From IMG/VR virus record IMGVR_UViG_3300042270_000651, positions 30,209 through 94,208 of that record: a stretch of 64,000 nt of DNA; one strand, given 5' to 3'. The position numbers and the translations under genes were made by a program. Below the pieces are notes generated by a model that saw only the letters and a list, made by a program, of their open reading frames with translations, was not told the origin of the DNA and did no database searches. Shown piece by piece: positions 680-61,779 of this stretch. The first letter of the stretch is position 1. Each line of letters begins with the position of its first letter. The stretch comes from a virus. Lineage: Duplodnaviria > Caudoviricetes.

Positions 680-1672
680 CTAGTCGAGTTGAAAGCCCTC
701 CACCGGTACAAATGGGGCCAGGGCCTCGACCAGCTGGCTTACCGTGGCCTCGCCGGGGTCCTTGACGCCCTCGGGCAGTTCCGCGTGGGCGATCAGGCAG
801 TCCGCCAGGGACTCACGGTATTTCTTGCGGGCGCGCTGGCCCGCCTTGTCTCCGTCGAACAGGGTGACCTGCTCCATCACGTCCCCCATGCGCTGTATTT
901 TCTCCAGGCTCAGGCCCGCCGTCAGCGGGCTGGTCACGTTGGGGTACAGCGGGTGGACGGCGGCCAGGTCGAACACCGACTCAACGACCACCACGGGCCG
1001 GTCGAAGTCGATCCAGTGCTCACCCAACCAGACGAGCGGGTTGTTCTGCTTCTGGTAGGTATACATGCGGTACTTGAGCGGGTTCGCCGCGTCGACGGCC
1101 CGGCCGTGCAGGCCCCGCAGCCGCCCCTGGAAGTCCCGCACCGGGAAGCAGACGCGGCGCTGCGTGCTGTCCCACCGCAGGTCCAGGGCCTCGGCTGTCT
1201 CCTGGGACACATTGCGCCCCTGCAGGTAGGACCGCGCCTCGGTGACGCCCCAGGCATGGCTGAAACTCTCCAGCCACCACTCCGGGAAGACGTGCGGCCC
1301 GGCCTTGTCACCGAACAGCTCCTCCTCGACATCTGGGAAGTCCAGGTCGACGACTGCGTCCTCCTCGGCGTCTGCAATCAGTTGCAGGGCCTCGGCGAAC
1401 TCGTAGCTGTCCCCGCTCGGGTCCTTCTTGTCCCGGAACCGCATCTCGAAGACGAGGTCCGACTGGCTGCCGTGCCAGCCGCAGCTGAAGCAGTGGGTGA
1501 AGCCGTCACCCTTGCTCTCGATCTTCACGGCGAAGCTGGGGTTCTTGTCTACCCCGCTGTCGTGCCGCCAGGGGGCGAGAGGGCACTTGGCCACCACCCA
1601 ACCGTCACGGTCAACGGGCGCGGGCTTGCTACCCAGGTGCTCCAGGTACTTCTTGATGTGGGCGTCCTTCAT
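680..1672 (-). CDS. dnaG: DNA primase (Zn finger + TOPRIM)
   Basis: CPLAPWRH...HCFSCG Zn finger; RVCFPVRD; VVVVESVFD; LFDGDKAG; KDPG; start ATG 1672 overlaps the upstream stop. Confidence 0.85.
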   Translation of the reverse strand: MKDAHIKKYLEHLGSKPAPVDRDGWVVAKCPLAPWRHDSGVDKNPSFAVKIESKGDGFTHCFSCGWHGSQSDLVFEMRFRDKKDPSGDSYEFAEALQLIADAEEDAVVDLDFPDVEEELFGDKAGPHVFPEWWLESFSHAWGVTEARSYLQGRNVSQETAEALDLRWDSTQRRVCFPVRDFQGRLRGLHGRAVDAANPLKYRMYTYQKQNNPLVWLGEHWIDFDRPVVVVESVFDLAAVHPLYPNVTSPLTAGLSLEKIQRMGDVMEQVTLFDGDKAGQRARKKYRESLADCLIAHAELPEGVKDPGEATVSQLVEALAPFVPVEGFQLD

Positions 1673-2040
1673 GCCCTCTTCTCCCGCAGCTTCTTCGACC
1701 GGAACAGCACCTTCCTGGCTTTGGGTTTGGCCTGCTTGGGTGGGGGCTTGCCACCGTCCCGGCGCAGCTGGTGCACCGCGCCCACCACCCTCTGGGGGAA
1801 GTCCGACTGCTTGAGCAGACAGCTTCCGGCCGACAGGTCGCCCCGGCTGACCACCGGCTTGTGCCAGTGCTCCACCGTGTCCCAGGCGGCGTCCAGCTTG
1901 GTGCAGAGGTAGTCGAACAGGCCGTCCGACAGGATCGGGTCGTCTTCGATGTAGTAGGCCCAGGAGGCCATCAGGTACCACGGAACCAACAGGTTCGGGT
2001 TTCCCTCGACGGCCTCCCGGCAGGTCTGGTCATGCAGCAT
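1669..2040 (-). CDS. Small protein resembling the N-terminal (Ia) subdomain of NAD-dependent DNA ligase
   Basis: AYYIEDDPILSDGLFD resembles the LigA motif YYVLDDPxxSDAEYD; no KxDG adenylation motif. Confidence 0.55.
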   Translation of the reverse strand: MLHDQTCREAVEGNPNLLVPWYLMASWAYYIEDDPILSDGLFDYLCTKLDAAWDTVEHWHKPVVSRGDLSAGSCLLKQSDFPQRVVGAVHQLRRDGGKPPPKQAKPKARKVLFRSKKLREKRA

Positions 2041-2063
2041 GGGGCCCTCCTTGGCCTGCTGTC

Positions 2064-2246
2064 TCAGGACACGGGCAGCGGCGCGTGGCCGGGCTCCTCG
2101 TGGTGGAGCACCGCACCCAGGTCGCGCTTATCGACGGCCTGACCGCACGCGGTGCAGGCGTAGAAATGGTCGGCCTCGGCCGTCACCGGAGCGTCAGGCT
2201 CTCCGTAGATGCCGCTGGCGGCGTTGTCGTGCCGGGGGTCTGTCAT
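2064..2246 (-). CDS. Small hypothetical protein with CxxC...HH
   Basis: 60 aa, ACTACG...LHHEEPGH; overlaps the RNase H stop. Confidence 0.55.
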
Positions 2247-2866
2247 GCCGGCGCTCCTTGCAGGAAGGGCTTCATGCCCTTGTTGGCGAGGTGGTCGGCC
2301 AGCTCATTGCCGGCGTTCCCCGCATGACCCTTCACCCACTTGAACTTGACGAGGTGCCGGCTGGCGGCGTCGTCGAGGCGTACCCAGAGGTCCCGGTTCT
2401 TGACGGGCTGGCCGGTGGCGGTCTTCCACCCGTTGCGTTTCCAGCCGTTGATCCATCCCGAGATGCCCTTCTGCACGTACTTGCTATCGGTGAACAGCGT
2501 GACGCTGTGGGAGCCCTCCAGGCTTTCCAGCGCCGCGATCACCGCCATCAACTCCATCCGGTTGTTCGTGGTCGAGGGCTCGCCACCGCACATTTCCCGG
2601 CGCGGCAGGCCGTTCACGTCGCACACGTAGCCCCAACCGCCGGGGCCGCCAGGGTTCTTGATGCAGGCGCCATCCGTGTAGATCACGGCGCCCGGCCGGC
2701 GGGTCACTCCGTGGCTGACGGGGCCCTTGATCGTGTCCACCGTGACGGCCGGCGGCAGCAGGGGGCTGTTCGGGTTCGAGAACGCCGACGACAGGTCTTC
2801 CTGGGCCGCCTTGGCGGTGACCTGGTCCGGGGCGTCGATCTCCACGACGATGCTGTATTTGGGCAT
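2243..2866 (-). CDS. rnhA: Ribonuclease HI with N-terminal extension
   Basis: [43 protein letters not shown]. Confidence 0.95.
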
Positions 2867-3222
2867 CAGTCGTCCTCCGAGACGAGGAACTGGTAGAAGG
2901 CGTCGGCCAGGGACGTGACGTCCTGCGGCGTGCGGTTGTGCTTGCCACCCTTCATGTGGTTGACCGCCATGCCCAGCGCCGCCTCACGGGCCTCGAAGTC
3001 GCCCTCGTCCATGAACGACAGGAATTGCCGGGCCGCCTCGGTCAGCCGGGCGGGGTCCAGGGTGTAGCGGGTCTTGGCGTGGTAGTCGGTGGCGAGCTTG
3101 AGCGCCGTCTTGCGGATTTTCTCGGCCTTGGCCTGGGCCAGCCGGGCCTCCTCCTCCTCGGCGAGGCGATCCTTCAACCGCTGCTCGGCCTCGGCCTTTC
3201 CGATGTGGGTCACCTGCGTCAT
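2866..3222 (-). CDS. Hypothetical protein
   Basis: ORF with AAGGAG SD before ATG 3222. Confidence 0.7.
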
Positions 3223-3257
3223 GCAGCCCTCCTTGGCTTGCAATTGATTTCAGGGGT

Positions 3258-3397
3258 GCGGTCGGTCTGCCTTGCGGGCCGGGACTATGCCTGTGGGCCC
3301 TGCCCCACTCCCGACCGGACCCGGCCCTCCCGAGACCAATCAGGAGGCAGACTGTGGGTCGACCGCGAACCCTTCCATGAGAAGACGTCCGGTCGGG
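3258..3397 (-). ncRNA. Candidate structured RNA (pseudoknot potential) directly 3' of the tRNA
   Basis: Complementary pairs 3258-3272/3345-3366, 3276-3283/3320-3327, and a crossing 11-bp pair 3310-3320/3387-3397. Confidence 0.35.
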
Positions 3398-3400
3398 TGT

Positions 3401-3474: not shown

Positions 3475-3511
3475 GTAGTCGATCTGGGGATGGGGCTGCA
3501 GCCGAAGGAAC

Positions 3512-3608: not shown

Positions 3609-3609
3609 A

Positions 3610-5408: not shown

Positions 5409-5410
5409 GG

Positions 5411-5987: not shown

Positions 5988-6908
5988 TCACCACTCCCCG
6001 ACGGTGGTCGCCTTCTTGGCGGGCGTGCTGGCGGGCTTGGACGGGCCCTCGGCGGCCCAGCCTTCGTCGGGCGTGAAATTGATTGCAGTCTGTAGGTTGC
6101 TCACCAGGAACGACAGGTCCGGCTTGCTGGGCGACCACTTGGTCTTGCCGGTGTCCTCTTTGCACTGCTCGACGAACTGATGCCAGTGCGTGACGGCTCG
6201 CACCATGGTCTTGGCGGCGGTGCCGGGCGGGCACGCCTTGATGATCTGCTTGATCTGGCCGCGCGCCTTCTGGGTCAGGTTTGGCACGAACTCCCCGGTC
6301 ACGTCGGCGACGGCTTCCTTCCAGGACAGCTCCATGGCCGTGACCTTGTCCTCCAGCTTCGGGGTCTTCTTCGGGGTCTTGGCCACGTCGGCCACCGAGT
6401 ACCCACCTTTCTGCTTCATCTTCGATCCTCCTTGATCGGTCTTCGACCCCCCAGCGCCGACCGAGGCGCTAGGTGTGTCTGTAGTCTCTGTATTTGTAGT
6501 CTCTGTATATAGGGTGGTGTCTCCCGACCCCACCTGGGTGGTGTCGAACGACGCCACCCAGGTGGTGCCCCCAGACACCACGGCTTCCTTCTCACGGACC
6601 TTGTCGAGGCCGAGACGGCGCACCCCAAGATCGGTCAAACGGAGGTGGCTGACGAGGCTGGACCCCCACTTCATCTGGGCCGTTTCGACCAGGCACATGC
6701 CCCGCAGCTTGGCCAGGGCCTTCTTGTACTGGTCCAGGCTCAGGCCCGTCTCCGTGGTCCACTCCTCCCGCGTCTTGACGATCCAGAGCTTGTCACGCTT
6801 GCGCACCGTCATTCTGGGGTGCCAATACGCGATCTGGTGCAGAAGGATCGCCGTCGTGCAGTCCTTGTTCGCCACCTCGACGCAGGTGGTCAGCATCGTC
6901 TTCTTCAT
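5988..6908 (-). CDS. Replication initiator-like protein (N-terminal winged helix, internal iterons)
   Basis: AILLHQIAYW...KTREEWTTETGLS typical of phage replisome organisers; low-complexity linker carries DNA repeats. Confidence 0.65.
   Translation of the reverse strand: MKKTMLTTCVEVANKDCTTAILLHQIAYWHPRMTVRKRDKLWIVKTREEWTTETGLSLDQYKKALAKLRGMCLVETAQMKWGSSLVSHLRLTDLGVRRLGLDKVREKEAVVSGGTTWVASFDTTQVGSGDTTLYTETTNTETTDTPSASVGAGGSKTDQGGSKMKQKGGYSVADVAKTPKKTPKLEDKVTAMELSWKEAVADVTGEFVPNLTQKARGQIKQIIKACPPGTAAKTMVRAVTHWHQFVEQCKEDTGKTKWSPSKPDLSFLVSNLQTAINFTPDEGWAAEGPSKPASTPAKKATTVGEW
6480..6583. repeat. Putative replication origin: three 24-bp palindromic iterons plus an AT-rich direct repeat
   Basis: GGTGGTG(T/C)C-N4-GACNCCAC units starting at 6513, 6537 and 6561; TGTAGTCTCTGTAT at 6480 and 6495. 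Confidence 0.6.
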
Positions 6909-8965: not shown

Positions 8966-9020
8966 CGCGTGTCTCCTTCGATGTGAAATTGATTGCAGGT
9001 GGGGGCAGAAGCCCCCCGCC

Positions 9021-9387: not shown

Positions 9388-9448
9388 GAAGAAAGCGACA
9401 GGCTGGACTCCTGCCGCTTCCACCCGGTCTGTGCAATTGCTTGCAGGC

Positions 9449-11398: not shown

Positions 11399-11418
11399 TG
11401 CAATTGATTTCAGGCGCC

Positions 11419-13190: not shown

Positions 13191-13214
13191 GGCGCTTTAC
13201 CCCTGCAATTGATT

Positions 13215-15991: not shown

Positions 15992-16047
15992 CACTTTACA
16001 CGTCTGGTGCCCTGGGACACCTGCAACTGATTGCAGCGGTGCGATCC

Positions 16048-26836: not shown

Positions 26837-27032
26837 GCTGCCCACTCCTTTGCTGGCTGCTTGGTCCATTCAAATCGGGCGACTTGTCTGCCCAAAGCAG
26901 CTCCACCTTACAGGGGGCATGGGCCTTTGCAATTGATTGCGCGGCGCCTCGGGTCAACTTTGCCGCCACGATCTCGCCGGTCATTTCGCCGGCCGGCGTG
27001 GCCTTGAGGACGAGGTAGACCTTGACGTGCAT
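26784..27032 (-). CDS. Hypothetical protein
   Basis: MHVKVYLVLKA... with GGAGG SD; overlaps chaperone G by about 50 nt. Confidence 0.5.
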   Translation of the reverse strand: MHVKVYLVLKATPAGEMTGEIVAAKLTRGAAQSIAKAHAPCKVELLWADKSPDLNGPSSQQRSGQHGFEGSHPRGNVRLPVR

Positions 27033-44437: not shown

Positions 44438-44545
44438 GATGCCCTCCTTGGCAGTTGATGGTTTGTCGTATCGTCAGTCTAGCAAGGGGTCCGCCCAGCC
44501 CAAAGCATAAGGCGACCCCCGGATCGTTCAGGCGTGCAATTGATT

Positions 44546-48363: not shown

Positions 48364-48381
48364 GCTCTCCTCCTCGTGAAA

Positions 48382-48558
48382 TCAATTGCAGGGCGTTGCG
48401 CCCAGGTCCGTGGCCAGGTCACTCGTCCACGGCGCATCGTCGATCACCTCGACCACATGCGCCTTCACGTCATGCCGGAACCGAACGTTAGCGCGGTCGA
48501 GGTCCAGCACGAACGTGCTCTCGTTGGTGTCGGACCAGAACTTCCACCGTCGTCCCAT
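48382..48558 (-). CDS. Small hypothetical protein
   Basis: MGRRWKFWSD...; TGATG-coupled to TerL. Confidence 0.5.
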   Translation of the reverse strand: MGRRWKFWSDTNESTFVLDLDRANVRFRHDVKAHVVEVIDDAPWTSDLATDLGATPCN

Positions 48559-51386
48559 CACGCCTCCTGCGACTCCTTGTCCTCGATGCTGCGCTTGTGC
48601 ACCTGCGGGTTCCTGACCGACTCCGGGATATGCAGCATGGGCACCTTGTGTCGCACCCAAATCTCGCGGCGGCGGGTCAGGCCGTAGATCACGCCGGCCA
48701 TGGCGTCCGAGCAGTCCTTGGAGAACTTGGGCGGGTGGTCGATCTTGTTGTTCTGCGGGTCACGCTCAAGCCGCACCCACTCCTGCATGGCCTTCTCGTG
48801 GTCGGGTGCGTCGACACGGTCGTCGTAGAACGCCTGCTTGCCCATGTCGTAGGGCTGCGTGCTTGTGTCCATGGACTGCAGCCCGGTGATGAAGCCGCGC
48901 TGGGCCAGCAGCTGGATCGTGTCGGTGGACTGGTAGCTGTCGAGCGTCACCCACTTGATGTTCATACCCATCTCGCGCAGGCGGTAGAGCACCGAACGGA
49001 CCTTCTCGAACTCGATCTCGCCTTGCCGGGGCGGTGCGATCTCCAGGACCAGATCGAAGTAGATGCGGGGCAGTATTTCGACTTCCTTCTCGCCGCGCAC
49101 CAGCTGCTCGAACCCGGTGACGTGGCCGATGGCCAGGCCGCAGCTGTCGCCCGAGATGGCCAAGTCGAGGTGGGCGAAGCGGGGCTCGTCCGGGTTGATG
49201 ATCCGCTTCGGGAAAATCTGCAGCTTCGTGTCCTTGAAGTCGACCCGGTCGCGGCCGGCGATGCCTTTCGCGCGCCCGAACGACCGAACCACCGACTCGC
49301 TGTTCAGGATGAACGGGTGCAGGGCCAGGGTCGAGACGCCAGCGATGTCGCGCAAGGCCGACAGCATGTCGCGCTCGAACTCGGACCGGTACTCGTCGGG
49401 CACCTGCATGATCAAGTGGCGGTCCTCGGCGGTGACCTCCTCGTCGTCGCCCAGCAGACGCGGCTTGCGGGTGACGTCGCCGACGAACAGGTTGAACCAC
49501 TCGCCGGAGAACGTCCCCTCGGGCTTCACGTCCCAGACGCGCTTATCGTAGATGAAGATGGTCTTGTCGCGCTGGGCTTCTTCCATCTTGCGGTCGGTGA
49601 ACTCTCCGGGGTACCGCTTCGACGACACCAGACAGAGCATACCCGGCAGCTTGCCGCCCGCCATGAAGCGCGACTTACGGCGCCGGACGATGCCGTTGTA
49701 CATCTCGTTGGCCTGGTCGAAGGTCCCGCCGTCGGACGACGACTTGGACTTCTCGATCACGGCCATGAAGTTGACCTCGTCGATGACGCCGCCGAAGACG
49801 TTCTGGCCGATGGCCGCGTTCACGTCGCCCGACAGAGGCATGACGATCACGCGGTTCGGGAAGTTGAGCTGGCTGGAGATGCCCCGGTCGTAGCGGTAGA
49901 CGTTCTGGAAGTACGGCGAGCTGTCCAGCATCGACTTGAAGCGCATGAAGTCGATGCCCTTGGCCGCCTCCTTCTTCAGCGACTGGAAGATGAACACGAT
50001 CTCCGAGGACGGAGCCAACCCGAACTCCCGGTGCGGGTTCTTGAGGCAGGACAGTAGGTACAGGTGGTAGGCGATGACGATGAGCGCGGCGGTGGTCTTG
50101 CCGGTGTTGCCCGTGATCGCCACGCGCCCATTGCGACGCATGACCCAGAAGGTCTTCGGCACCGAGAAGCAATACTTGTAGCCGTCCGGCGACGGGATCG
50201 TCTCGATGGGCGTCTTGGGCACCCCTTGGAGGGACACCTCCGTGTTCGTGCTCAGGGTCAGCGTGTAGCAGGTGGCCTGCTCAGGCCGCCGGTCGACACC
50301 CACCGTGCTGCGGAGGCCAAGGACACACGCCGCGTACTGCAGGAAGTCCACCGTGGCCTTGTCGGTCGAGAAGAGCTGCCTTCGGTTGTCTGACCGGGCG
50401 TCCCACATCAAGGCTTCGGACAGGATCACGTCGCATTGCTCGCGTGACGCACCCCAGAACACACCCATGGACTTTTCGCGCAACGGAGCCTGGAAGTAGA
50501 ACCGGACACCGCCTCCAGGTCGCGGCGTCTCCGTCCACTCGGCCCCGGCCGAGGCGAGGAGCTGACGAGCCCGCACAATTTTGTCCTTGCGCTTGACAGC
50601 CACGAGGCACGCCCGGCCTGGGCGGTCCTTGTTGAAGCTGCCGTCGGCCATGGCCATGACCTGGACCCGCAGTTCGTCGTCCGACAGGTCGAGGCCGGAG
50701 CCGTCCATCTCGAACGTCGTCAGCAATTTGCCGTGGAAGCCCTTGGCGAGACGGCCGTGCTCCTTGACCAGTTCGTCTGCCACGATGACTTTCAGGGCAC
50801 CACTACGGTCCCGGTACAGGACCCGGTGCTCCGGCGAGAGGGCCTGGTCGATGCCGTACTTCGTTCGCAAGTGGTAAAACTGATTGCACTCCAGGCGCAC
50901 CCAGTCTTCCGGCTCCACGAACTCGGCCTGGCCTGTCTCGGGGTCGTACTGCGCGACCGCCCCACCATCGTAGTCGGCGATACGTCGCCATCCGGTCGGG
51001 GACAGGTACTCCGTGTCGGCGTCGACGCAGCCAATACCGCCGGTCCACACGCTCTCGACGTAGTCGCCGAAGCACAGATCGGCGATCTCGTCCATGATCT
51101 TGGGGTAGACCTCCGTGCCCATGTTGAGCATTTCGGGCGAGCGGATGAAGGTCACCACGTCGACCGGCGGGCGGTGGTACTTCACCGCCTCGGTCCCGGC
51201 AAACCGCCGCATGTACTTCAGGCCGTGGAGGCAGTGCGCGAGCACCCCCTCCAGGCCCTGGTCCTCCTCGACCGTCTTGGCGGCCTGCCACACGATGCGC
51301 CCGCTGTCCCCGAACTGCCGCAGCAGCTGGAACGCCATGCGCAGGCGCTCGGCCGTGGCCTTCTTATTGGAGATGCTGACACTCAC
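48558..51386 (-). CDS. terL: Terminase large subunit with intein
   Basis: Spliced Walker A GGIG-TGKT; GGVIDEVNF; nuclease HLDLAISGDS...VTLDSYQS...KIDHPP...KDCSDA. Confidence 0.9.
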   Translation of the reverse strand: MSVSISNKKATAERLRMAFQLLRQFGDSGRIVWQAAKTVEEDQGLEGVLAHCLHGLKYMRRFAGTEAVKYHRPPVDVVTFIRSPEMLNMGTEVYPKIMDEIADLCFGDYVESVWTGGIGCVDADTEYLSPTGWRRIADYDGGAVAQYDPETGQAEFVEPEDWVRLECNQFYHLRTKYGIDQALSPEHRVLYRDRSGALKVIVADELVKEHGRLAKGFHGKLLTTFEMDGSGLDLSDDELRVQVMAMADGSFNKDRPGRACLVAVKRKDKIVRARQLLASAGAEWTETPRPGGGVRFYFQAPLREKSMGVFWGASREQCDVILSEALMWDARSDNRRQLFSTDKATVDFLQYAACVLGLRSTVGVDRRPEQATCYTLTLSTNTEVSLQGVPKTPIETIPSPDGYKYCFSVPKTFWVMRRNGRVAITGNTGKTTAALIVIAYHLYLLSCLKNPHREFGLAPSSEIVFIFQSLKKEAAKGIDFMRFKSMLDSSPYFQNVYRYDRGISSQLNFPNRVIVMPLSGDVNAAIGQNVFGGVIDEVNFMAVIEKSKSSSDGGTFDQANEMYNGIVRRRKSRFMAGGKLPGMLCLVSSKRYPGEFTDRKMEEAQRDKTIFIYDKRVWDVKPEGTFSGEWFNLFVGDVTRKPRLLGDDEEVTAEDRHLIMQVPDEYRSEFERDMLSALRDIAGVSTLALHPFILNSESVVRSFGRAKGIAGRDRVDFKDTKLQIFPKRIINPDEPRFAHLDLAISGDSCGLAIGHVTGFEQLVRGEKEVEILPRIYFDLVLEIAPPRQGEIEFEKVRSVLYRLREMGMNIKWVTLDSYQSTDTIQLLAQRGFITGLQSMDTSTQPYDMGKQAFYDDRVDAPDHEKAMQEWVRLERDPQNNKIDHPPKFSKDCSDAMAGVIYGLTRRREIWVRHKVPMLHIPESVRNPQVHKRSIEDKESQEA
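50106..51029 (-). mobile_element. Intein (308 aa) in the TerL Walker A motif
   Basis: G|CVDADTEYL...SPEHRV...MAMADGS...RRNGRVAITGN|TGKT. Confidence 0.9.
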
Positions 51387-51937: not shown

Positions 51938-52861
51938 TCACACCTCCGTGGCTGTCTTGATGTTGTCCTTGGTCGGCGTCACACCCAGGCCCTTGGGCAC
52001 CTCGACCTCGGGCGTCGACGCGATGATCTTGTCCACCACGTCCTTCAGCTCGCCCTTTGCAATCAATTTCACGACCCCGCCGAGCACGTCGTCGAGGGTG
52101 CGCTGCTGCTCGATGCACATGGTCCCGACCAGCCGGCAGGCGTCCATGGTCTTCTTGTCCACCTGGACCCAGATGCTGTCTTGACCGCCGTAGTCGACCA
52201 CCATGTAACCGTAGGGCAGCGTGTCGCCGTACTTGGTGAACATCTCGTTCAGGAGCTTGGCGAGGCCGTCGATGGTCTTGATCTCGCGGGCCGCCTCCTT
52301 GAACTTCTGCTGCATCCCCTTGTCGGGCAGATGCTTGGAGGTCTGCTCGATCAGCTTCTTGAACTCGGCCTCCTCGGCGAAACCGAAGGCGTCCTGCAGC
52401 ACGTCGTCGGCGTACTTGCCCGACATTTCGCTGTAGAGGTCGAAGAACGCCTGCGGGTCCATCTTGCCCTTGATGACGTTCATGCGGACGAGCTGGAAAT
52501 TCTCGGCCTCGTCGTCGAAGCCCTCATCCATGATGACCGTGACCGGGACCATCTCGAAGCCCAGGTAGACGGCCGCGTCGAAGCGGTGGTGGCCGCCGAC
52601 GATGCGGAACTTCAGGCCGTGGGCCGAGACCGACGACTCGATTTCCGCCGGGGTCGGGTCGTCTTCCGCCACGGCGGCGAAGGTGTCGTAATCGAGCGGA
52701 CGCACGAGGATCGGGTCCGTGATGCCCGTCTGCTCCAGGTTGTCGCAGAGCAGGTCGAACTCGCGCGGTTTCATCTTGTTGGGGTTGCGCTCGTTCTTTT
52801 CCAGGGCCGTGACCGGAAGGTCGCAGCGAACGAGCGCCTGGGTCTTGTCGAGAGCCGACAT
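51938..52861 (-). CDS. ParB/Srx N-terminal-domain protein
   Basis: NERNPNKM...GITDPILVRP...RIVGGHHRFDAA. Confidence 0.85.
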   Translation of the reverse strand: MSALDKTQALVRCDLPVTALEKNERNPNKMKPREFDLLCDNLEQTGITDPILVRPLDYDTFAAVAEDDPTPAEIESSVSAHGLKFRIVGGHHRFDAAVYLGFEMVPVTVIMDEGFDDEAENFQLVRMNVIKGKMDPQAFFDLYSEMSGKYADDVLQDAFGFAEEAEFKKLIEQTSKHLPDKGMQQKFKEAAREIKTIDGLAKLLNEMFTKYGDTLPYGYMVVDYGGQDSIWVQVDKKTMDACRLVGTMCIEQQRTLDDVLGGVVKLIAKGELKDVVDKIIASTPEVEVPKGLGVTPTKDNIKTATEV

Positions 52862-53002: not shown

Positions 53003-54031
53003 TCACCCCTGGTCCACGGCCAGGTCTAGGACCCGCTCGTAGAACCGGGCGACGGGGTACTCCTCCTGAATGCGCGGGGCGGCGACCTCCAGCATGTACT
53101 TCCGGGTCGCGTCCCAGTCCTGGCGCAGCGCCGCCATGGTCTCGGCCAGCTCGGCCTTGGGCACGATGTAGGGGTACCAGGGCAGGAGCTGCCTAATCCA
53201 CGGAGCGTCGAGGAAAACACCGCACACGCCCGACGCCAGAAGCTCCAGGTAGTACGTGCCGAAGCTCTCCCCGCGCGAGGTCGACAGGAACATGCCGTAG
53301 GTGCGGGCGTTCTCCACGAAGGTCGCGCGGTCCTTGGGCTGCTCGAAGAAGCGGTAGACGTTCGGCCGCAGGAACTTCTCCTTGCCTCCCGGCCCCCAGA
53401 CCTTGGCCGGCACATGGAAGAAGTCGCACACCGGGTCGAACCCCTTGGCGCGAGCCCAGACCAGGTACTTCTCGGTCTCCTCCGAGTGCAGGCGCACGTC
53501 CTTCTCGGTCTGGGCGACCCGGTTGTACGGCACGATCAGCCGGTCGGGGTCGTTGTCGCCGGGCCGGAAGCAGTCCTCGATGCCGTACTTCACCAAGTGA
53601 AGTTGATTGCACAGCTTGCGCACGACGGCGGGAGCGAAGGCTTTCTTGGCGTCCCGCATGATGCCGTCGTGTGTGTGCTGCGAGGTCGAGACGTGGGCCA
53701 TCTCGATGCCCGAGACCTTGGGCTCCAGGAACAGGCTCAGGTACGCCATCTTCTTGGGCCAGCTGAACCCGTCCCAATGCCCGGCCATCACCGAAACGAT
53801 CTTGGTCGGGCGGACCCAGCGCAGGTTGTCGAAGGTCTTGAGCAGGGCGTAGAACACCTCGGGCTCCGCCAGGACGAGGACCGGCGAGCCGTTGAAGGCC
53901 GGCGCCGGGGTCGACTTCATGGTGACGTCGAAACCACGGCCCGTGGCCTCGGCCGCAACCTGGTCGGCCAAAATCTTGAGGCTGAACCCTTCCTGGGACT
54001 CGCTGATCAACACTCCAAGCGCGGAACCCAT
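53003..54031 (-). CDS. GT-B (GT4-like) glycosyltransferase
   Basis: FLSTSRGESFGTYYLELLASG (E-x7-E motif). Confidence 0.7.
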   Translation of the reverse strand: MGSALGVLISESQEGFSLKILADQVAAEATGRGFDVTMKSTPAPAFNGSPVLVLAEPEVFYALLKTFDNLRWVRPTKIVSVMAGHWDGFSWPKKMAYLSLFLEPKVSGIEMAHVSTSQHTHDGIMRDAKKAFAPAVVRKLCNQLHLVKYGIEDCFRPGDNDPDRLIVPYNRVAQTEKDVRLHSEETEKYLVWARAKGFDPVCDFFHVPAKVWGPGGKEKFLRPNVYRFFEQPKDRATFVENARTYGMFLSTSRGESFGTYYLELLASGVCGVFLDAPWIRQLLPWYPYIVPKAELAETMAALRQDWDATRKYMLEVAAPRIQEEYPVARFYERVLDLAVDQG

Positions 54032-55242: not shown

Positions 55243-56730
55243 TTATTTTACGGTCAGCTTACCGACCTCCGTGCCGTGGTCTGACCACCCGTGCTGGAAG
55301 ATCAGCGACTGCCGGTACTCGTTGAAGTTCGTCGCCATCGAGTAGGACAGCTTCACCCGGTCCTTACGGAACACGTCGTACAGGTGGTTGACTCTCTTCT
55401 CCTTCTGCATCTCGGCCAGGCCGGTGTCGAAGTCGAAGGTCGTCAGGCCCTTATCGGCGGCGTACTTGCGAATGTCGGCCACCACGCCGTTGGCGGACCC
55501 GGCCAGGCGCCCCGTCATGCGCGCCTCGTACTCCTTCAGGGCGTCCATGATCTGGTACGGGAACCACAGGCCGTTGCGACGCTCCATCTCGGGCCGGAAC
55601 CACCCCTCGAACCACTGCCGGAACTTCTCGTACATGCCGGTGTAGTCCTCGGCAAACGCCCGCGCCATGCCATACGCCTGCACCGGCCCGTTGACGATGA
55701 ACGGGTAGTCGGCGCCGAAGGTCGGCCGCACGTATGGGGCGTCCAGCACGATCAGCGGCACCCCGAACGTGACCGGCTCGATCAGGCTGAGCGGGTAGTC
55801 CTCGTCGGGGCTCATGGCCATGCAGACGTCGACTTCCTCCCGCATGAGGCGCCAGAACTCCTCGCGGGGGCAGCGCCGCACGTCGAGGTGCCCGAACCGC
55901 TCGTCCTCCTGATAGCGGTCCACCACCTTGCTGTTGCTGGTCAGCAGGAGGCGCATCCGGTCCTCGCCGCCGTGCAGGGCGTACTGCCGAAAGAAGGTGT
56001 CGAGCACGTCATCCTGCCGGTTGGTCTTGCCCGACAGGCGCTGCGTGTAGGCCATCGTGAAGGTCTTGCCACCCTCGGCCACGGTCTTGACGTAGGACTC
56101 CGGCTTGGTCTCCAGGCCGTCGAACTTGCGCGAGATCGAGGTCAGCAGCTTGCCATCCAGCTCCCGCACCCGGCTCGGGGTCAGGTAGGTCTTGGCCGTC
56201 TTCAGGATCAGGACCTTCGACGCCATGGAGAAGATCAGCGCCTTGTCGGCGGCCAGGTAGCCTGCAATTGACTGCAGGTCCCCGCTGTCAGGGTGCGGTT
56301 GGTTCACGCGGCTCTTGAACGACATGATCGGGAACTCGTCCTCGACGATCACGTACCGCGACCAATGGCGCTTCGAGCGGGTCATCCACATACGCATCGT
56401 GCCGACCTGAGTGGAGCGTGCCGTAATCAGCACGTCCCAGTCCCAGATCGACCCGTTGAAGGCGACCGCGTCCTCGACCTCCGGCGGCAGGCGGGCGTAC
56501 TCCCGCATCCTGTCGCTGTCCTGGGCTACCGGCACGTAGTGCACCCGCTCGTGCTGCAGCAGCCAGTCCTTGTCTACCTCGAACTTTGACCGTTCCGGGT
56601 CGGGCAGCAAGTAGTAGAAGACCACGTCGTCGCGGCGTTCCAGCACGTACTGCATCATGGTCTGCATCTTGAAGTGGCAGCTGCAGTAGGACGGGTCGTT
56701 GGTGGAGATCGGGTCGATCAGAACCTTCAT
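55243..56730 (-). CDS. GT-B (GT4-like) glycosyltransferase
   Basis: VCMAMSPDEDYPLSLIEPVTFGVP (E-x7-E); start ATG 56730. Confidence 0.65.
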   Translation of the reverse strand: MKVLIDPISTNDPSYCSCHFKMQTMMQYVLERRDDVVFYYLLPDPERSKFEVDKDWLLQHERVHYVPVAQDSDRMREYARLPPEVEDAVAFNGSIWDWDVLITARSTQVGTMRMWMTRSKRHWSRYVIVEDEFPIMSFKSRVNQPHPDSGDLQSIAGYLAADKALIFSMASKVLILKTAKTYLTPSRVRELDGKLLTSISRKFDGLETKPESYVKTVAEGGKTFTMAYTQRLSGKTNRQDDVLDTFFRQYALHGGEDRMRLLLTSNSKVVDRYQEDERFGHLDVRRCPREEFWRLMREEVDVCMAMSPDEDYPLSLIEPVTFGVPLIVLDAPYVRPTFGADYPFIVNGPVQAYGMARAFAEDYTGMYEKFRQWFEGWFRPEMERRNGLWFPYQIMDALKEYEARMTGRLAGSANGVVADIRKYAADKGLTTFDFDTGLAEMQKEKRVNHLYDVFRKDRVKLSYSMATNFNEYRQSLIFQHGWSDHGTEVGKLTVK

Positions 56731-58083: not shown

Positions 58084-58770
58084 TCAGCGGACGACTTTCC
58101 GCATGACGTGGAACAGTTCGGCGTACTCCAGGCCGCACTCCAGCCCCCGCATCCGCGCCTGGGCGACACTGGCGTCTACGCTGAAGCAGTGCTGGCCCTC
58201 TCGCATCTGCGTCCGGTAGCAGTTCAGGGCGTCAGTCTTGGCCTTCAGGCTGGTCTCGGGCAGCTCGACGTACATGCCGCCCTTGCCCGCGTCGGCGCCC
58301 GACCCCGGCCCCCACACCGTGGCGGGGTACTCGTAAGCTGCAATCAGTTGCAGGGTGTCGTTGAAGGCCGACGGCCGGGTGGCGGCCAGGCAGGCGCGGT
58401 ACGTTATTTCGTGATCCTGATGGCTGCTGGGCAGGGGGATCAAAATTTCGGTGGGTCGGAAGTCGCGCTGCACCTTGTCCAGCTCCCCGATGATCTCAAC
58501 CAGGGGCAGGGTGTCCAGCTTCCGGTCGTGTGCCCAGAACAGGCCCTTGCAGTGCTGCACCCCGAGAACGCTCATCGAGTCGTGGCACTCGGACATGCGC
58601 TCTTCGGCGGTGACCGTGCGGCCCAGGTGGGCGAAGTGCACATCGCCGAGGGCCACGACCACGTTCATCACTTCGCCGCCGGCCTCGGTGACTCGGTGCA
58701 TGTACCCTCCGCACCCCAGCTCGGCGTCGTCGGCGTGGGGGCTGATGACTAGAACCCGCTTATTGTGCAA
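58084..58770 (-). CDS. PIG-L/LmbE family N-acetylglucosaminyl deacetylase
   Basis: VLVISPHADDAELGCGG; SHQDH; TTG start 58770. Confidence 0.9.
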   Translation of the reverse strand: MHNKRVLVISPHADDAELGCGGYMHRVTEAGGEVMNVVVALGDVHFAHLGRTVTAEERMSECHDSMSVLGVQHCKGLFWAHDRKLDTLPLVEIIGELDKVQRDFRPTEILIPLPSSHQDHEITYRACLAATRPSAFNDTLQLIAAYEYPATVWGPGSGADAGKGGMYVELPETSLKAKTDALNCYRTQMREGQHCFSVDASVAQARMRGLECGLEYAELFHVMRKVVR

Positions 58771-60191: not shown

Positions 60192-60547
60192 CAGGCGATC
60201 TCCCGCACGCTTTCGATGAACTTGATTGCAGTCTTGATCTCGCGGTCGTCCAGATTCCGAATGTCCCGCGCCATCTGGAGGGCCCGCTTGTAGACCTCCG
60301 GGCGCAGGACCATTTCCGGCTCCAGGTACATACCCTCGTAGAAGAACTGCACCGGCACCCGCAGGGCCGCGCTCACCTGGAGCAGGCGATGCACGCCCAT
60401 CTCCGTCTCGCCGGCCTCCCACTTCTGCACGGCTTGGTGGCTCACGCCGCAGGTCGCGGCCAGGTCGGCCATCCCCAAGTCCAGCTCCGTGCGGCGCATC
60501 CGCAGCTTGGAGCCGATGTGGCGGAGTAAGACTTCACGTTCGATCAT
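60191..60547 (-). CDS. XRE-family HTH regulator
   Basis: IGSKLRMRRTELDLGMADLAATCGVSHQAVQKWEAG...VPVQFFYEG. Confidence 0.85.
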   Translation of the reverse strand: MIEREVLLRHIGSKLRMRRTELDLGMADLAATCGVSHQAVQKWEAGETEMGVHRLLQVSAALRVPVQFFYEGMYLEPEMVLRPEVYKRALQMARDIRNLDDREIKTAIKFIESVREIA

Positions 60548-60587
60548 GGTGTCTGGTCCTCCTTGACATGAAATTGATTGCAGCGGG

Positions 60588-60917
60588 TCAGTCGCGCAGC
60601 TCGCGGTGCTCGACCGTGACCTCGCGGCCCGCCTCGCGCAGACGCCGGGCGGCGATCTCCACCACGGCCACCGAACGATGGCGTCCGCCGAAGCAGCAGA
60701 CCCCGACGCGACCATGGGCCTGGGCCTTCAGGATCACGGTCGAGGCGAGGTGCTCGGCCTCCGGCATCACGTAGTCCTGGACCTTGGGGTGGCGGCCGTC
60801 GAGCGGCTTCAGCTCCAGGACATGGTGCGGGTTGCGCACGCGGCGCACGTCCACGTAGGCGTCGCCGGCATCGGCCTTGCGGTGCTTCACACCGAACGAG
60901 TACAACTTGATCTGCAT
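60588..60917 (-). CDS. RapZ (YhbJ) C-terminal-domain-like protein
   Basis: YSFGVKH...DVRRVRNPH...LKPLDG...CCFGGRHRSVAVVE. Confidence 0.75.
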   Translation of the reverse strand: MQIKLYSFGVKHRKADAGDAYVDVRRVRNPHHVLELKPLDGRHPKVQDYVMPEAEHLASTVILKAQAHGRVGVCCFGGRHRSVAVVEIAARRLREAGREVTVEHRELRD

Positions 60918-60920
60918 TAT

Positions 60921-61493
60921 TCATCCCTCCTTGGATGCGGACGGGTAGATGCCCTTGGCCTTCGCCAGCCAGAGCGGCATGGTGATCTCGGCCTGGATCT
61001 GGATGAGCGACTTCTTCTCGACCTCGACCTGGGACTTGGGCAGCCAAACGGGCTGACCGTCTACGCCCGCCACCTTGTATGCCTTGGCCGTCTCGGCCTC
61101 GATGACCGTGATCAGCTTGACGTAGTCCAGATTGTCACCCTTGGCCTGGGCCTGATCCTTGTCGTAGCCCACCTGGTCGAACAGGGCCTCCAGGTCGAAG
61201 CCCACCTCTTCCAGGGTGTTCCGCCACTTGGCGATGTCGCCCCGCGTCTTGCCGTCCTCCCGGCGCAGGGCCTCGACCTGGTTCTTTGTCAGGCGGTCGT
61301 ACTTGATAACAGCGTCCCCGGCCACATCCCTGGTGAACTTCGACGCGAGATGGGCGGCTGTCAGGTACGCGGCGGCGCCCTCCACGCTGTGGACCGCGAC
61401 CCACTTGGTCCATGCGCGCATCTGCAGGACCCCGTCCCGGTTCCGGGTCTTGAAGTTTCTGGCCTTTAAAGTGTCCAGCAGGGTCTTGGTCAT
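60921..61493 (-). CDS. Hypothetical protein
   Basis: 190 aa; SD hairpin; C-terminal VWLPKSQV...MPLWLA. Confidence 0.7.
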   Translation of the reverse strand: MTKTLLDTLKARNFKTRNRDGVLQMRAWTKWVAVHSVEGAAAYLTAAHLASKFTRDVAGDAVIKYDRLTKNQVEALRREDGKTRGDIAKWRNTLEEVGFDLEALFDQVGYDKDQAQAKGDNLDYVKLITVIEAETAKAYKVAGVDGQPVWLPKSQVEVEKKSLIQIQAEITMPLWLAKAKGIYPSASKEG

Positions 61494-61531
61494 CGCGCCC
61501 TCCTTGGCGAGTGATGAGGTGGTGTACGACC

Positions 61532-61560
61532 AGCGTGCGTCAGGTGGGCCTGGCAGGCAA
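61532..61560 (-). promoter_or_regulatory. Putative promoter (TTGCCT family)
   Basis: TTGCCT-N17-CACGCT, with a 14-bp motif copy 10 bp upstream. Confidence 0.4.
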
Positions 61561-61581
61561 GGCTGTGGCGTGCAATTGATT

Positions 61582-61779
61582 TCACACCTTGGCCTGCCAC
61601 AGCTTCATCTCCCGCAGACGCCGGGCGTTCTCCCGGTAGAGTCGGGCCTGCTCCCCATTGTGTTTGGCGGCGGCCAGCTTCGCGTCGTTGAAGTGCTCGA
61701 ACACGTCCAGGCCGTCGGCCGGCAGCTGGGACTCCAGCACCGTGGTGAACGGCCCGTCCCATACGATGCGGTAGGTCAT
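61582..61779 (-). CDS. Hypothetical protein
   Basis: MTYRIVW...; translationally coupled. Confidence 0.55.
   Translation of the reverse strand: MTYRIVWDGPFTTVLESQLPADGLDVFEHFNDAKLAAAKHNGEQARLYRENARRLREMKLWQAKV

What the first reader, a model, noticed from the sequence alone, without database searches (positions are those of the whole stretch)
1373..61584. 14-bp AT-rich quasi-palindrome repeated roughly every 2 kb, including inside genes
SEEN: about 29 copies of TG(A/C)AA(T/C)TGATT(G/T)CA or close variants (coordinates in the feature list), 22 in one orientation and 7 in the other, in otherwise GC-rich DNA. About 17 lie inside CDSs (primase, initiator, tail tip x2, distal tail, chaperone T, minor head, PPDK, the TerL intein, ParB, both GT-Bs, PIG-L, XRE and others). 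They are read in different frames (LQLIA, AINFT, VQSIS, CNQLQ, EIDFT, LKLIA, AVNCT), so the constraint is on the DNA. The rest sit at gene junctions, and four overlap stop codons (13204, 44535, 48377, 61571). The largest gap is about 5.4 kb. KNOWN: mycobacteriophage stoperators are dispersed repressor sites, but they are asymmetric and mostly intergenic. The geometry here resembles LacI/CcpA operators (TGNAANCGNTTNCA) with the central CG replaced by TG. INFERENCE: near-even coverage suggests a genome-marking system rather than promoter control. Options are loading sites for the ParB-like protein that recruit the modification or packaging enzymes, nucleoid or protection sites, or roadblock repressor sites. 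The XRE gene 60191-60547 has one copy upstream and one inside.
Basis: partly seen in the sequence, partly recalled or inferred. Interest (0 to 1): 0.88.

Follow-up and report, generated by a model that had tools for sequence, protein, structure and literature searches.

The report
Evenly spaced protein-binding palindromes across phage
A 14-base palindrome-like sequence is written about every 2 kb along this prophage, even inside genes; related phages of very different bacteria carry their own versions, so it most likely marks docking sites for a phage DNA-binding protein that must cover the whole genome.

Summary
The window holds 29 sites (21 exact, 8 with one mismatch; under 1 expected). The whole 94-kb provirus record holds 43.

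All phage genes lie on the minus strand, so most sites read TGMAATCAATTKCA on the coding strand. Codon bias does not explain them: 17 lie fully inside CDSs, against a mean of 0.75 in synonymous shuffles.

Spacing is far more regular than chance. Sites at gene junctions are not regular on their own; the intragenic sites fill the gaps. This pattern recurs in five of six relatives tested.

The motif belongs to a whole phage family (RcZahn, DLP5, Vibrio SIO-2 and many uncultured relatives). Its specificity co-evolves, for example TGCAATTAATTGCA, TGCAACTAGTTGCA and TGATCTTAAGATCA. Some sites are rewritten in place inside orthologous genes.

Best reading: these are dispersed operators for a phage-encoded homodimer. 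The favoured binder is a conserved 349-aa protein with a ParB/KorB-like DNA-binding domain, encoded just outside the window. A perfect site sits in its own promoter in 15 of 19 genomes.

The function is inferred, not shown: genome-wide silencing or roadblock is favoured over genome organisation.

The parts
1373..1386 (-). Site TGCAACTGATTGCA. Centre reads TG on the coding strand (reverse orientation). Deep inside the primase-like gene (window 680-1672), read as LQLIA.
3239..3252 (+). Site in forward orientation (reads TGAAATCAATTGCA on the coding strand). Intergenic, 17 nt upstream of the start of gene 2866-3222, directly before an AAGGAGG ribosome-binding site.
6074..6087 (+). Forward site in the 3' end of the 306-aa initiator-like gene (5988-6908), 86 nt from its stop. 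DLP5 has a site near the 3' end of the orthologue (72 nt from its stop).
8984..8997 (+). Forward site. Intergenic, 19 nt upstream of the AAA-ATPase gene (7751-8965), next to the ribosome-binding site.
9432..9445 (+). Forward site with 1 mismatch. Intergenic, 115 nt upstream of gene 9021-9317.
11399..11412 (+). Forward site. Intergenic, immediately followed on the coding strand by a GC-rich hairpin plus T-run (terminator-like, read by eye).
13204..13217 (+). Forward site whose TGA is the stop codon of gene 13215-14897.
16022..16035 (+). Forward site. Intergenic, 88 nt upstream of gene 14909-15934.
19693..19706 (-). Reverse site with 1 mismatch, inside the 1003-aa tail gene (19525-22536), 168 nt from its stop.
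21781..21794 (+). Forward site deep inside the 1003-aa tail gene. It fills a gap between junction sites.
23060..23073 (+). Forward site inside the 206-aa gene (22533-23153).
26359..26372 (+). Forward site. Intergenic, upstream of the tape-measure-like gene, with a ribosome-binding-site-like AAGGAG just downstream.
26928..26941 (+). Forward site with 1 mismatch. Intergenic, 92 nt upstream of gene 26411-26836.
30546..30559 (+). Forward site. Intergenic, upstream of gene 29961-30431.
32013..32026 (-). Reverse site inside the 106-aa gene (31837-32157).
35085..35098 (+). Forward site. Intergenic, 92 nt upstream of the capsid protease gene (34391-34993). A site upstream of this gene is present in 6 of 7 full genomes compared.
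36048..36061 (+). Forward site inside the minor-head gene (35124-36206).
41426..41439 (-). Reverse site inside the 136-aa gene (41153-41563).
44535..44548 (+). Forward site overlapping the stop codon of the phosphatase gene (44546-45049).
46575..46588 (+). Forward site with 1 mismatch inside the PPDK-like kinase gene (45724-47820). It lies in the same alignment column as a DLP5 site whose centre is flipped.
48377..48390 (-). Reverse site overlapping the stop of the 58-aa gene (48382-48558), 14 nt upstream of the next start codon.
50875..50888 (+). Forward site with 1 mismatch inside the large terminase gene (48558-51386).
52058..52071 (-). Reverse site inside the ParB_N gene, read as VKLIA. 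It lies in the same alignment column as the DLP5 site TGCAATCAATTGCA (VQSIA).
53598..53611 (+). Forward site with 1 mismatch inside the 342-aa gene (53003-54031).
56263..56276 (+). Forward site with 1 mismatch inside the 495-aa glycosyltransferase-like gene (55243-56730).
58339..58352 (-). Reverse site inside the PIG-L-like gene (58084-58770), read as LQLIA.
60217..60230 (+). Forward site with 1 mismatch inside the XRE gene (60191-60547), 26 nt from its stop.
60569..60582 (+). Forward site. Intergenic, 22 nt upstream of the XRE gene start, next to the ribosome-binding site.
61571..61584 (+). Forward site overlapping the stop codon of gene 61582-61779.
63928..63951 (+). Two overlapping degenerate copies (2 mismatches each) near the right end of the record. 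Whether they belong to the set is uncertain.
51938..52861 (-). It is not universal among motif-bearing relatives.

Best explanation
The sites are dispersed operator-type binding sites for a phage-encoded homodimeric DNA-binding protein. Each site has two inverted 6-bp half-sites (TGCAAT or TGAAAT) around a 2-bp centre.

The most likely binder is a conserved 349-aa protein encoded at record 23890-24939, about 5.3 kb before the window. It has:
- a central ParB/KorB-like helix-turn-helix DNA-binding domain;
- an N-terminal SAP/HeH-like motif;
- a C-terminal dimerising part;
- no ParB CTPase domain.

The protein would bind its own promoter at the one perfect site. It would also bind some 40 weaker sites placed so that no part of the unidirectionally transcribed genome is more than about 2-3 kb from one.

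Sites are put at gene junctions where space allows, just upstream of ribosome-binding sites or of promoters. Where genes are long, they are written into the coding sequence.

The favoured function is genome-wide control of transcription. At promoters this would be repression of the promoter-proximal KorB type. Elsewhere it would be roadblock or silencing of the stoperator type.

Shown: the sites, their selection at the DNA level, the gap-filling spacing, and the family-wide co-evolution.
Inferred: that a protein dimer binds them, which protein it is, and what binding does.
For: 1. Real and selected. There are 21 exact sites against 0 expected. Seventeen lie fully inside CDSs, against a mean of 0.75 in synonymous shuffles.

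2. Two-fold symmetry that co-varies between phages:
- TGCAAT-TA-ATTGCA in G006-G010 and G018;
- TGCAAT-CA-ATTGCA in DLP5, G014 and G016;
- TGCAAC-TA-GTTGCA in G003;
- TGCAAC-CA-CTTGCA in G004;
- TGAWCT-YA-AGWTCA in G005;
- TGCAGA-CA-TCTGCA in L087;
- TGCAAG-TA-ATTTCA in G002.
SIO-2 (45% GC) and this phage (65% GC) share almost the same motif.

3. Sites are rewritten in place. The same alignment column of the SF2 helicase carries TGCAGTTGATTGCA here, TGCAATCAAGTGCA in DLP5 and TGATCTTGAGATCA in G005, with different amino acids. The same holds for the PPDK-like and ParB_N genes.

4. Coverage. All sites give CV 0.53. Junction sites alone give CV 0.99, equal to the null. With junction sites held fixed and the 15 deep sites randomised in coding DNA, 0 of 5000 simulations reach the observed regularity. 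The gap-filling test also passes in DLP5, RcZahn, SIO-2, G004 and G005 (P from under 0.0005 to 0.011).

5. Junction enrichment: 21 of 43 sites lie in the 15% of the phage that is intergenic (P = 1e-7). Many end 10-40 nt before a start codon.

6. The candidate binder:
- Its family is present in all 7 full genomes and in 8 of 8 relatives that are at least 90% complete.
- Among the 24 genes shared by at least five of the six relatives, I recognised no other candidate site-specific DNA-binding protein. This is my reading; only five other core proteins of unknown function were scanned with Pfam and none was folded.
- The AF2 model has pLDDT 79. Residues about 110-240 match the ParB DNA-binding domain bound to parS (6s6h_B: Z 8.0, rmsd 4.5, 117 aligned), Spo0J (1vz0: Z 7.2) and the KorB DNA-binding domain bound to its operator (1r71: Z 6.6).
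- The homodimer model scores 0.72 against a best control of 0.00. That mark was reached by 20 of 30 solved homomers and 1 of 23 proteins solved as single chains. The runs agree in at least 55% of contacts, and partner pLDDT is at least 71.
- A class-perfect site lies 55-108 nt upstream of its start codon in 15 of 19 genomes. In at least six it ends exactly 8 bp before a -35-like hexamer (promoter elements read by eye). KorB's proximal operators sit 4-10 bp upstream of promoters (PMC11790492).
Against: - No binding data exist. All fold matches are middling: a Rubisco chaperone (Raf1) scores Z 9.0, above ParB, and Foldseek found nothing at E <= 0.001.
- The putative recognition helix (YRKAxY) is nearly invariant across motif classes. 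I found no clean covariation with specificity.
- The family occurs in every relative, so its phyletic match is no better than that of any other core gene.
- In four genomes (SIO-2, G002, G003, G005) no site lies upstream of the gene.
- The motif is also present in SIO-2, for which no lysogeny is on record (my recollection). A function limited to lysogeny is therefore unlikely.
- The strong CA-over-TG bias at junctions (25:3) is not expected for a symmetric dimer.
- Nearly all sites here deviate by exactly one base from the perfect half-sites, which is unexplained.
- The gene lies within the recombination module, which fits other roles too.
Confidence: 0.5

Rival explanations
1. Genome organisation rather than transcription. 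The same kind of protein binds the sites and bridges, condenses, tethers or partitions the phage DNA. This would resemble Noc on its 14-bp NBS palindromes, or ParB/SopB on dispersed centromere sites in phage-plasmids, for replication, segregation or packaging.
For: - Regular, gap-filling spacing points to coverage of the DNA rather than of promoters.
- The fold resembles the ParB and Noc DNA-binding domains.
- There is an N-terminal SAP/HeH-like motif (Z about 5).
- Homologues carry lysine/alanine-rich histone-H1-like linkers; one has PF07382 on record.
- DLP5 lysogenises as a phagemid (PMC5834331).
Against: - The candidate has no CTPase domain, and no ParA partner was identified.
- Many sites have fixed positions at ribosome-binding sites, and some sit exactly 8 bp from -35 elements. 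That suggests an interplay with gene expression.
- This phage is integrated, and SIO-2 is not known to lysogenise, so partition cannot be the common function.
Confidence: 0.2
2. The ParB_N protein next to the terminase genes (window 51938-52861) is what loads at the sites. It then spreads and recruits the neighbouring DNA-modification or packaging enzymes.
For: - It has a true ParB/sulfiredoxin N-terminal domain (PadC Z 11.9; KorB N-domain Z 9.7) with a GGHHR box at the place of ParB's GERR.
- The Spo0J match extends to residue 216 of the model (Z 7.6).
- It is highly conserved (60% identity to the RcZahn protein).
- KorB clamps slide up to about 1.5 kb (PMC11790492), which is close to half the site spacing here.
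Against: - The family profile finds no member in SIO-2 and only a 39-bit relative in G003, although both have the dispersed motif.
- No helix-turn-helix was recognised by Pfam or NCBIfam.
- The middle region of the model has low confidence (pLDDT 58-76).
Confidence: 0.1
3. Barriers against exonucleases, or recombination landmarks. A protein bound every 2 kb would limit resection from the random ends of a circularly permuted, headful-packaged genome, or would direct recombination-dependent replication. This would work like Chi, but from both directions.
For: - Here and in RcZahn and DLP5 the 349-aa gene lies at the end of the RecA/UvsX, resolvase, Cas4-like exonuclease and RuvC module. SIO-2 annotates the same module, and these genes are core to the family.
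- Even spacing and symmetry suit a function that must work from any end.
- RcZahn is circularly permuted (PMC8601537).
Against: - There is no precedent for a palindromic, protein-mediated Chi analogue.
- It does not explain the fixed position at promoters and ribosome-binding sites.
- It is purely inferential.
Confidence: 0.08
4. The motif acts in RNA or single-stranded DNA. It would be a small hairpin, a processing site or a translation-linked element just 5' of ribosome-binding sites, like the start-associated sequences of Cluster K mycobacteriophages.
For: - 13 of 43 sites end 10-40 nt before a start codon.
- Junction sites are nearly all in one orientation (25:3).
- The two half-sites co-vary, as a stem would.
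Against: - In this phage 33 of 43 sites carry a C>A or similar change in one half. That gives A-G or C-U mismatches, which would break a stem that is only 5 bp long. G002 sites have two such mismatches.
- A third or more of the sites lie deep inside genes in both orientations, at about the 3:2 ratio expected from the usable reading frames.
- The TA-centred relatives have fully symmetric sites.
Confidence: 0.05
5. The sites are bound by a host global regulator that the phages exploit.
For: - The same TGMAAT half-site is kept in phages of Vibrio, Stenotrophomonas, Rhodobacter and this wastewater alphaproteobacterial-type host.
- The geometry matches TGNAAN--NTTNCA, as in LacI-family operators.
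Against: - Close relatives have switched to quite different half-sites (TGATCT, TGCAGA, TGCAAC), with sites rewritten in place. That is what a co-evolving phage factor predicts.
- The central CG of LacI-type operators is absent.
- No host genome was available for counting the motif.
Confidence: 0.05

Closest known systems
KorB operators (OB) of IncP plasmid RK2
   Same: - A short palindromic operator is dispersed over the whole replicon.
- Some copies lie directly upstream of -35 elements. In RK2 the distance is 4-10 bp (PMC11790492); here it is 8 bp at the promoter of the candidate's gene in several relatives.
- Other copies lie far from any promoter or inside genes.
- The candidate binder's fold resembles the KorB and ParB DNA-binding domains.
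   Different: - About 25-45 sites per 80-100 kb, against roughly a dozen in RK2 (the RK2 number is from my own knowledge).
- Regular, gap-filling spacing.
- The candidate lacks the CTPase N-domain that makes KorB a sliding clamp.
- No KorA-like partner was identified.
- The host replicon is a phage, not a plasmid.
Stoperators of Cluster A mycobacteriophages (L5 gp71, Bxb1 gp69)
   Same: - Tens of 13-14-bp sites across the genome.
- Mostly one orientation relative to transcription at gene junctions.
- A site in the regulator's own promoter region.
- Motifs that drift together with the phage lineage (PMC6550527, PMC9283540).
   Different: - Stoperators are asymmetric and bound by a monomer; these sites are two-fold symmetric.
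- A third to more than half of these sites lie deep inside genes.
- The motif is also present in SIO-2, a phage not known to be temperate.
- The protein family is different.
Noc and its NBS sites; ParB and parS
   Same: - A 14-16-bp palindrome bound by a dimer with a ParB-type DNA-binding domain.
- Noc has many sites dispersed over a chromosome and marks DNA rather than controlling single promoters. These statements rest on my own knowledge.
   Different: - Noc and ParB need the CTPase domain to spread.
- parS sites are few and clustered.
- No membrane-targeting helix and no ParA partner were seen here.
Dispersed repressor operators of large temperate phages (P1 C1 operators; the phiC31 conserved inverted repeats)
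   Same: One phage regulator has 15-20 conserved sites spread over the genome, mostly between genes. This rests on my own knowledge.
   Different: - Those sites sit at promoters or in intergenic DNA.
- To my knowledge, neither even spacing nor sites written into coding sequence has been reported for them.

Membership tests
Stoperator / immunity-repressor system (Cluster A mycobacteriophages) | Tens of copies of a 13-14-bp site dispersed over the phage genome | tested here: met
   43 sites with at most 1 mismatch in 88 kb of phage DNA
Stoperator / immunity-repressor system (Cluster A mycobacteriophages) | Asymmetric site recognised by a monomeric repressor (PMC9283540) | tested here: not met
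   The sites have two inverted half-sites. The halves co-vary across eight motif classes.
Stoperator / immunity-repressor system (Cluster A mycobacteriophages) | Predominantly one orientation relative to transcription (PMC6550527) | tested here: inconclusive
   Junction sites are 25 forward to 3 reverse, but deep intragenic sites are 8:7. TA-centred relatives have no orientation at all.
Stoperator / immunity-repressor system (Cluster A mycobacteriophages) | The binder is the prophage immunity repressor and stops elongation | not testable with these tools
   No RNA run holds this DNA and there are no binding data.
KorB-OB system of IncP plasmids | Palindromic operator dispersed over the replicon, with promoter-proximal (4-10 bp upstream) and distal copies (PMC11790492) | tested here: met
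   In at least six relatives a site ends 8 bp before a -35-like hexamer at the promoter of the 349-aa gene (promoter elements read by eye). Other sites are intragenic or far from any start codon.
KorB-OB system of IncP plasmids | The binder is a ParB-CTPase protein: N-terminal CTP-binding domain, central HTH domain and C-terminal dimerisation domain | tested here: not met
   The 349-aa candidate has no Pfam or NCBIfam ParB_N match. Its fold matches cover only the DNA-binding domain (Z 6.6-8.0). The separate ParB_N protein is missing from SIO-2.
KorB-OB system of IncP plasmids | A clamp-locking partner (KorA or TrbA) with an operator of its own | not tested
   I did not search for a second motif at promoters.
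ParB-parS / Noc-NBS | A 14-16-bp palindrome bound by a dimer through a ParB-type HTH domain | tested here: inconclusive
   The palindrome feature is met. The fold match is middling (6s6h_B: Z 8.0, rmsd 4.5, 117 aligned), and an unrelated Raf1 match scores Z 9.0. The homodimer model passes its controls (0.72 against 0.00).
   Counted on the plus strand, centres are TG (32), CA (10) and TA (1) here, which is CA on the coding strand for the majority. Relatives have CA or TA.
   Only about 30 of the 124 called proteins were scanned against profile libraries.
Start-associated sequences (Cluster K mycobacteriophages) | An asymmetric 13-bp element found only just upstream of start codons | tested here: not met
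   The sites are symmetric. Fifteen of 43 lie deep inside genes and 17 lie more than 130 nt from the next start codon.

The most novel reading that the evidence does not exclude
A widespread family of 80-180-kb siphoviruses of Alpha- and Gammaproteobacteria marks its own genome. The mark is a dense, evenly spaced array of 14-bp palindromes read by a ParB/KorB-like protein that has no CTPase domain.

The array would be a self-identity or coverage system: every stretch of phage DNA must lie within about 2-3 kb of a bound dimer. It could serve to silence the genome, to shield it from the phage's own or the host's nucleases, or to sort it from host DNA.

Its specificity is free to drift, and the whole array is rewritten in step, even inside essential genes. 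This would be a kind of genome-wide cis-code not described for phages.
Probability: 0.2. Interest if true: 0.9.

Novelty: new variant of a known kind. Interest (0 to 1): 0.76.

Why it matters
If the reading holds, a large and widespread phage family carries a genome-wide array of binding sites. The family includes cultured, tractable members: Rhodobacter phage RcZahn, Stenotrophomonas phages DLP5 and DLP3 (the latter proposed for therapy), and Vibrio phage SIO-2.

The array is strong enough as a constraint to dictate amino-acid choices inside essential genes, and it is rewritten when the specificity changes.

This offers three things:
- a clean natural system for studying how a DNA-binding protein and dozens of its sites co-evolve;
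- a possible example of long-range silencing or genome marking by a ParB-like DNA-binding domain that works without the CTP clamp;
- a practical signature (TG-N4-N2-N4-CA at about 2-kb spacing) for recognising these phages and their boundaries in metagenomes.

The papers I could read on RcZahn and DLP3 do not mention the motif.

Tried and rejected
- A megablast of the first 20 kb of the window against GenBank phages found nothing.
- A literal-sequence search of papers found only unrelated primers. The RcZahn and DLP3 papers do not mention the motif. The SIO-2 genome paper is not held, so I cannot exclude that it describes the motif. Two further keyword searches gave nothing relevant.
- Foldseek against PDB gave no match at E <= 0.001 for the 349-aa model. 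A profile search of solved structures gave only chance-level hits.
- No RNA holder was listed for this DNA, and the holders are wastewater or bioreactor metagenome contigs. I therefore did not lay reads.
- I looked for covariation between the putative recognition helix and the motif class. The helix is nearly invariant. The only lead is a tryptophan that tracks the strict TA-centre genomes, which I do not count as evidence.
- I tried to test host-genome depletion through isolates carrying the 349-aa gene. The genome-contig scan returned only MAG contigs. The one long contig (Reyranellaceae) showed no recognisable motif class within the 6.7 kb fetched.
- IHF, FNR, Fur, ArgR and Cra consensus sequences, recalled from memory, do not fit the spacing or the centre of the sites. 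I did not pursue them.
- A promoter reading (ATTGCA as a -35 element) cannot hold for the many sites that abut a ribosome-binding site 10-20 nt before a start codon.

Full report
**1. The observation**

- The pattern TGMAAYTGATTKCA occurs 21 times exactly in the window, with 0.00 expected from dinucleotide-preserving shuffles.
- Eight further sites have one mismatch.
- The window is bases 30209-94208 of a 94,208-bp IMG/VR provirus record.
- In the whole record I count 43 sites with at most one mismatch, from record position 8603 to 91779. The first 8.6 kb has none.
- G+C is about 65% throughout.

**2. Gene layout**

- I built a GC3/codon-usage gene caller in Python. It puts every gene from record 5962 to 94172 on the minus strand. 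The long plus-strand ORFs have the GC1-high, GC3-low signature of shadow frames.
- Relative to transcription, the majority orientation therefore reads TGMAATCAATTKCA.
- Twenty-one of 43 sites lie wholly in intergenic DNA, which is 15% of the phage (P = 1e-7). Five overlap a gene boundary, four of them supplying the stop codon. Two lie within 40 nt of a stop. Fifteen lie deep inside genes.
- Many junction sites end 10-40 nt before a start codon, directly before an AAGGAGG-type ribosome-binding site. Another group lies 41-130 nt upstream, which leaves room for a promoter.

**3. Codon bias does not explain it**

Seventeen sites lie fully inside called CDSs. Sixty shuffles that permute synonymous codons within each gene give a mean of 0.75 and a maximum of 3.

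**4. Spacing**

- The gaps average 1.98 kb, with a coefficient of variation (CV) of 0.53. Random placement gives about 0.97, and 0 of 5000 simulations reach the observed value.
- The 28 junction sites alone are not regular: CV 0.99, the same as junctions picked at random.
- Regularity appears only when the 15 deep intragenic sites are added. With the junction sites held fixed and the deep sites placed at random in coding DNA, 0 of 5000 simulations reach the observed CV.
- Most of the deep sites sit in long genes: the 1003-aa tail gene (two sites), the large terminase, and the PPDK-like gene.
- The same gap-filling test passes in DLP5 (P < 0.0005), RcZahn (0.0025), SIO-2 (0.0065), G004 (0.011) and G005 (0.0055). 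It fails in G003 (P = 0.41), where only 14 sites matched the pattern I used.
- Something therefore selects for coverage of the whole genome.

**5. A family-wide, co-evolving feature**

The major capsid protein finds relatives in two collections:
- IMG/VR: 149 relatives, of which the 80 best were kept as loci.
- GenBank: Rhodobacter phage RcZahn; Rhizobium phages RHph_TM16 and RHph_Y1_11; Stenotrophomonas phages DLP5, DLP3 and Summit; and the Vibrio SIO-2/VHS1 group.

Where I called genes (RcZahn, DLP5, SIO-2, G003, G004, G005), all or all but one lie on one strand.

All relatives carry a dispersed 14-bp palindrome of the form TG-N4-N2-N4-CA, but the inner bases differ:

| Motif | Where |
|---|---|
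| TGCAATTAATTGCA | many uncultured relatives |
| TGCAATCAATTGCA | DLP5 (26 of 35 sites perfect), G014, G016 |
| TGCAACTAGTTGCA | G003 |
| TGCAACCACTTGCA | G004 |
| TGATCTTAAGATCA and TGAACTTAAGTTCA | G005 |
| TGCAGACATCTGCA | L087 |
| TGCAAGTAATTTCA | the 178-kb relative G002 |

- The two halves change together, which is what a two-fold symmetric reader predicts.
- Some sites are positionally conserved across classes. One alignment column of the SF2 helicase holds TGCAGTTGATTGCA here (IAVDCK), TGCAATCAAGTGCA in DLP5 (GAIKCK) and TGATCTTGAGATCA in G005 (VDLEIK).
- The PPDK-like and ParB_N genes each share a site column between this phage and DLP5, with the centre flipped.
- A site upstream of the capsid protease gene is present in 6 of 7 genomes.
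- So sites are kept in place and rewritten when the specificity changes, at the cost of amino-acid changes.

**6. Duplex-binding dimer or hairpin?**

- In this phage 33 of 43 sites differ by exactly one base from TGCAAT..ATTGCA. The usual change is C>A at position 3 of one half.
- This would give A-G or C-U mismatches in a stem that could only be 5 bp long. G002 sites carry two such mismatches.
- Deep sites occur in both orientations at about the 3:2 ratio expected. The reverse reading contains an in-frame TGA in one of its three frames.
- I therefore favour a protein dimer on duplex DNA.

**7. Who binds?**

- It has a genuine ParB/sulfiredoxin N-domain (Pfam ParB_N; PadC Z 11.9; KorB N-domain Z 9.7).
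- A profile of its family finds nothing in SIO-2 and only a 39-bit match in G003. Both genomes have the motif.

*The XRE proteins.* Of the two, one has a BLAST homologue in RcZahn only, and the other in neither RcZahn nor DLP5.

*A better candidate.* This is a 349-aa protein at record 23890-24939, outside the window (locus L010:8890-9939, minus strand).
- Its family (phrog_17202, no Pfam family) is in all seven full genomes and in 8 of 8 relatives that are at least 90% complete.
- Among the 24 genes shared by at least five of the six relatives, I recognised no other candidate site-specific DNA-binding protein. This is my reading: only five other core proteins of unknown function were scanned with Pfam, and none was folded.
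- The AF2 model (pLDDT 79) matches the ParB DNA-binding domain on parS (Z 8.0), Spo0J (Z 7.2) and the KorB DNA-binding domain on its operator (Z 6.6) over residues about 110-240. Residues 25-73 resemble SAP/HeH motifs.
- These Z values are middling. An unrelated Raf1 domain scores Z 9.0.
- A homodimer model passes its controls: 0.72 against a best control of 0.00. That mark was reached by 20 of 30 solved homomers and 1 of 23 proteins solved as single chains. The runs agree in at least 55% of contacts and partner pLDDT is at least 71. The model supports pairing but does not show it.
- A class-perfect site lies 55-108 nt upstream of the gene in 15 of 19 genomes. Here it is the only perfect site in the phage.
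- In RcZahn, DLP5, G009, G013, G015 and G016 that site ends exactly 8 bp before a -35-like hexamer (read by eye). This falls within the 4-10 bp reported for KorB's proximal operators (PMC11790492).

*Against this candidate.*
- The putative recognition helix is almost invariant across motif classes.
- Four genomes lack the upstream site.
- The gene always closes the recombination module.

**8. Function**

- The arrangement resembles two known systems. One is KorB's operators on RK2, with promoter-proximal and distant copies. The other is the stoperators of Cluster A mycobacteriophages, with tens of sites, one orientation at junctions, a site at the regulator's promoter, and motifs that drift with the lineage (PMC6550527, PMC9283540).
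- It differs from stoperators in being symmetric and often intragenic. It differs from KorB in that the candidate lacks the CTPase clamp domain.
- I commit to genome-wide transcriptional control (repression at promoters, roadblock or silencing elsewhere) as the most likely role. Genome organisation or partition, and end protection or recombination, are the rivals.
- None of this is shown. There are no expression data for this DNA.

**9. Still unexplained**

- The near-universal single deviation per site in this phage.
- The 25:3 bias for CA on the coding strand at junctions.

**10. Verdict**

- The feature is real, strongly selected, conserved and co-evolving.
- In kind it is a variant of dispersed operator arrays.
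- I found no report of the gap-filling regular spacing, or of the in-place rewriting inside genes, in the papers I could read. The SIO-2 genome paper could not be read.

Noticed in passing
window 48558-51386 (-) and 38019-41153 (-): The large terminase (942 aa) is about 300 aa longer than its RcZahn and DLP5 orthologues. Its middle part matches PHROGs named PhoH-like and ribonucleotide reductase, as expected for an intein-type insert. [quoted passage not shown]
   Followed up: no
G002 (IMG/VR record of L083), loci L097, L099, L100: This 178-kb relative has three tandem paralogues of the 349-aa gene. Its sites are markedly asymmetric (TGCAAG-TA-ATTTCA, about 41 copies). This may mean heterodimers with two half-site specificities.
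   Followed up: partly
L092 (RcZahn 82.7-84.7 kb) and L091/L092 junction region: In RcZahn, TA-centred sites lie in the 41-130 nt range upstream of genes. Three of them are followed by a shared GGAGGTGTTTTT box and a -35-like hexamer. CA-centred sites abut ribosome-binding sites instead. The centre dinucleotide may therefore distinguish two functional classes of site.
   Followed up: partly
record 1-5961 (before the window; locus L009): The left 5.9 kb of the record has plus-strand genes and no motif copy. It is probably not part of this phage: either host DNA or another element.
   Followed up: no
G005 (L095; L111-L115): In this relative both the 349-aa homologue and the ParB_N homologue are split by in-frame stops (one TGA and one TAA in the former). 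This could be assembly error, decay or recoding.
   Followed up: no
window 60588-60917 (-): A 109-aa protein consists only of a RapZ C-terminal domain (PF22740, E = 1e-23). RcZahn annotates a RapZ-like protein too. Its role in a phage is unclear.
   Followed up: no
window 11399-11450: On the coding strand, the site at window 11399 is followed directly by a GC-rich hairpin and a T-run. This looks like an intrinsic terminator at the end of the lysis/tail block.
   Followed up: no
P0036 and other homologues of the 349-aa protein: Many homologues carry a long lysine/alanine/proline-rich, histone-H1-like linker between the N-terminal motif and the DNA-binding domain (one has PF07382 on record). This phage has an acidic linker instead.
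   Followed up: no
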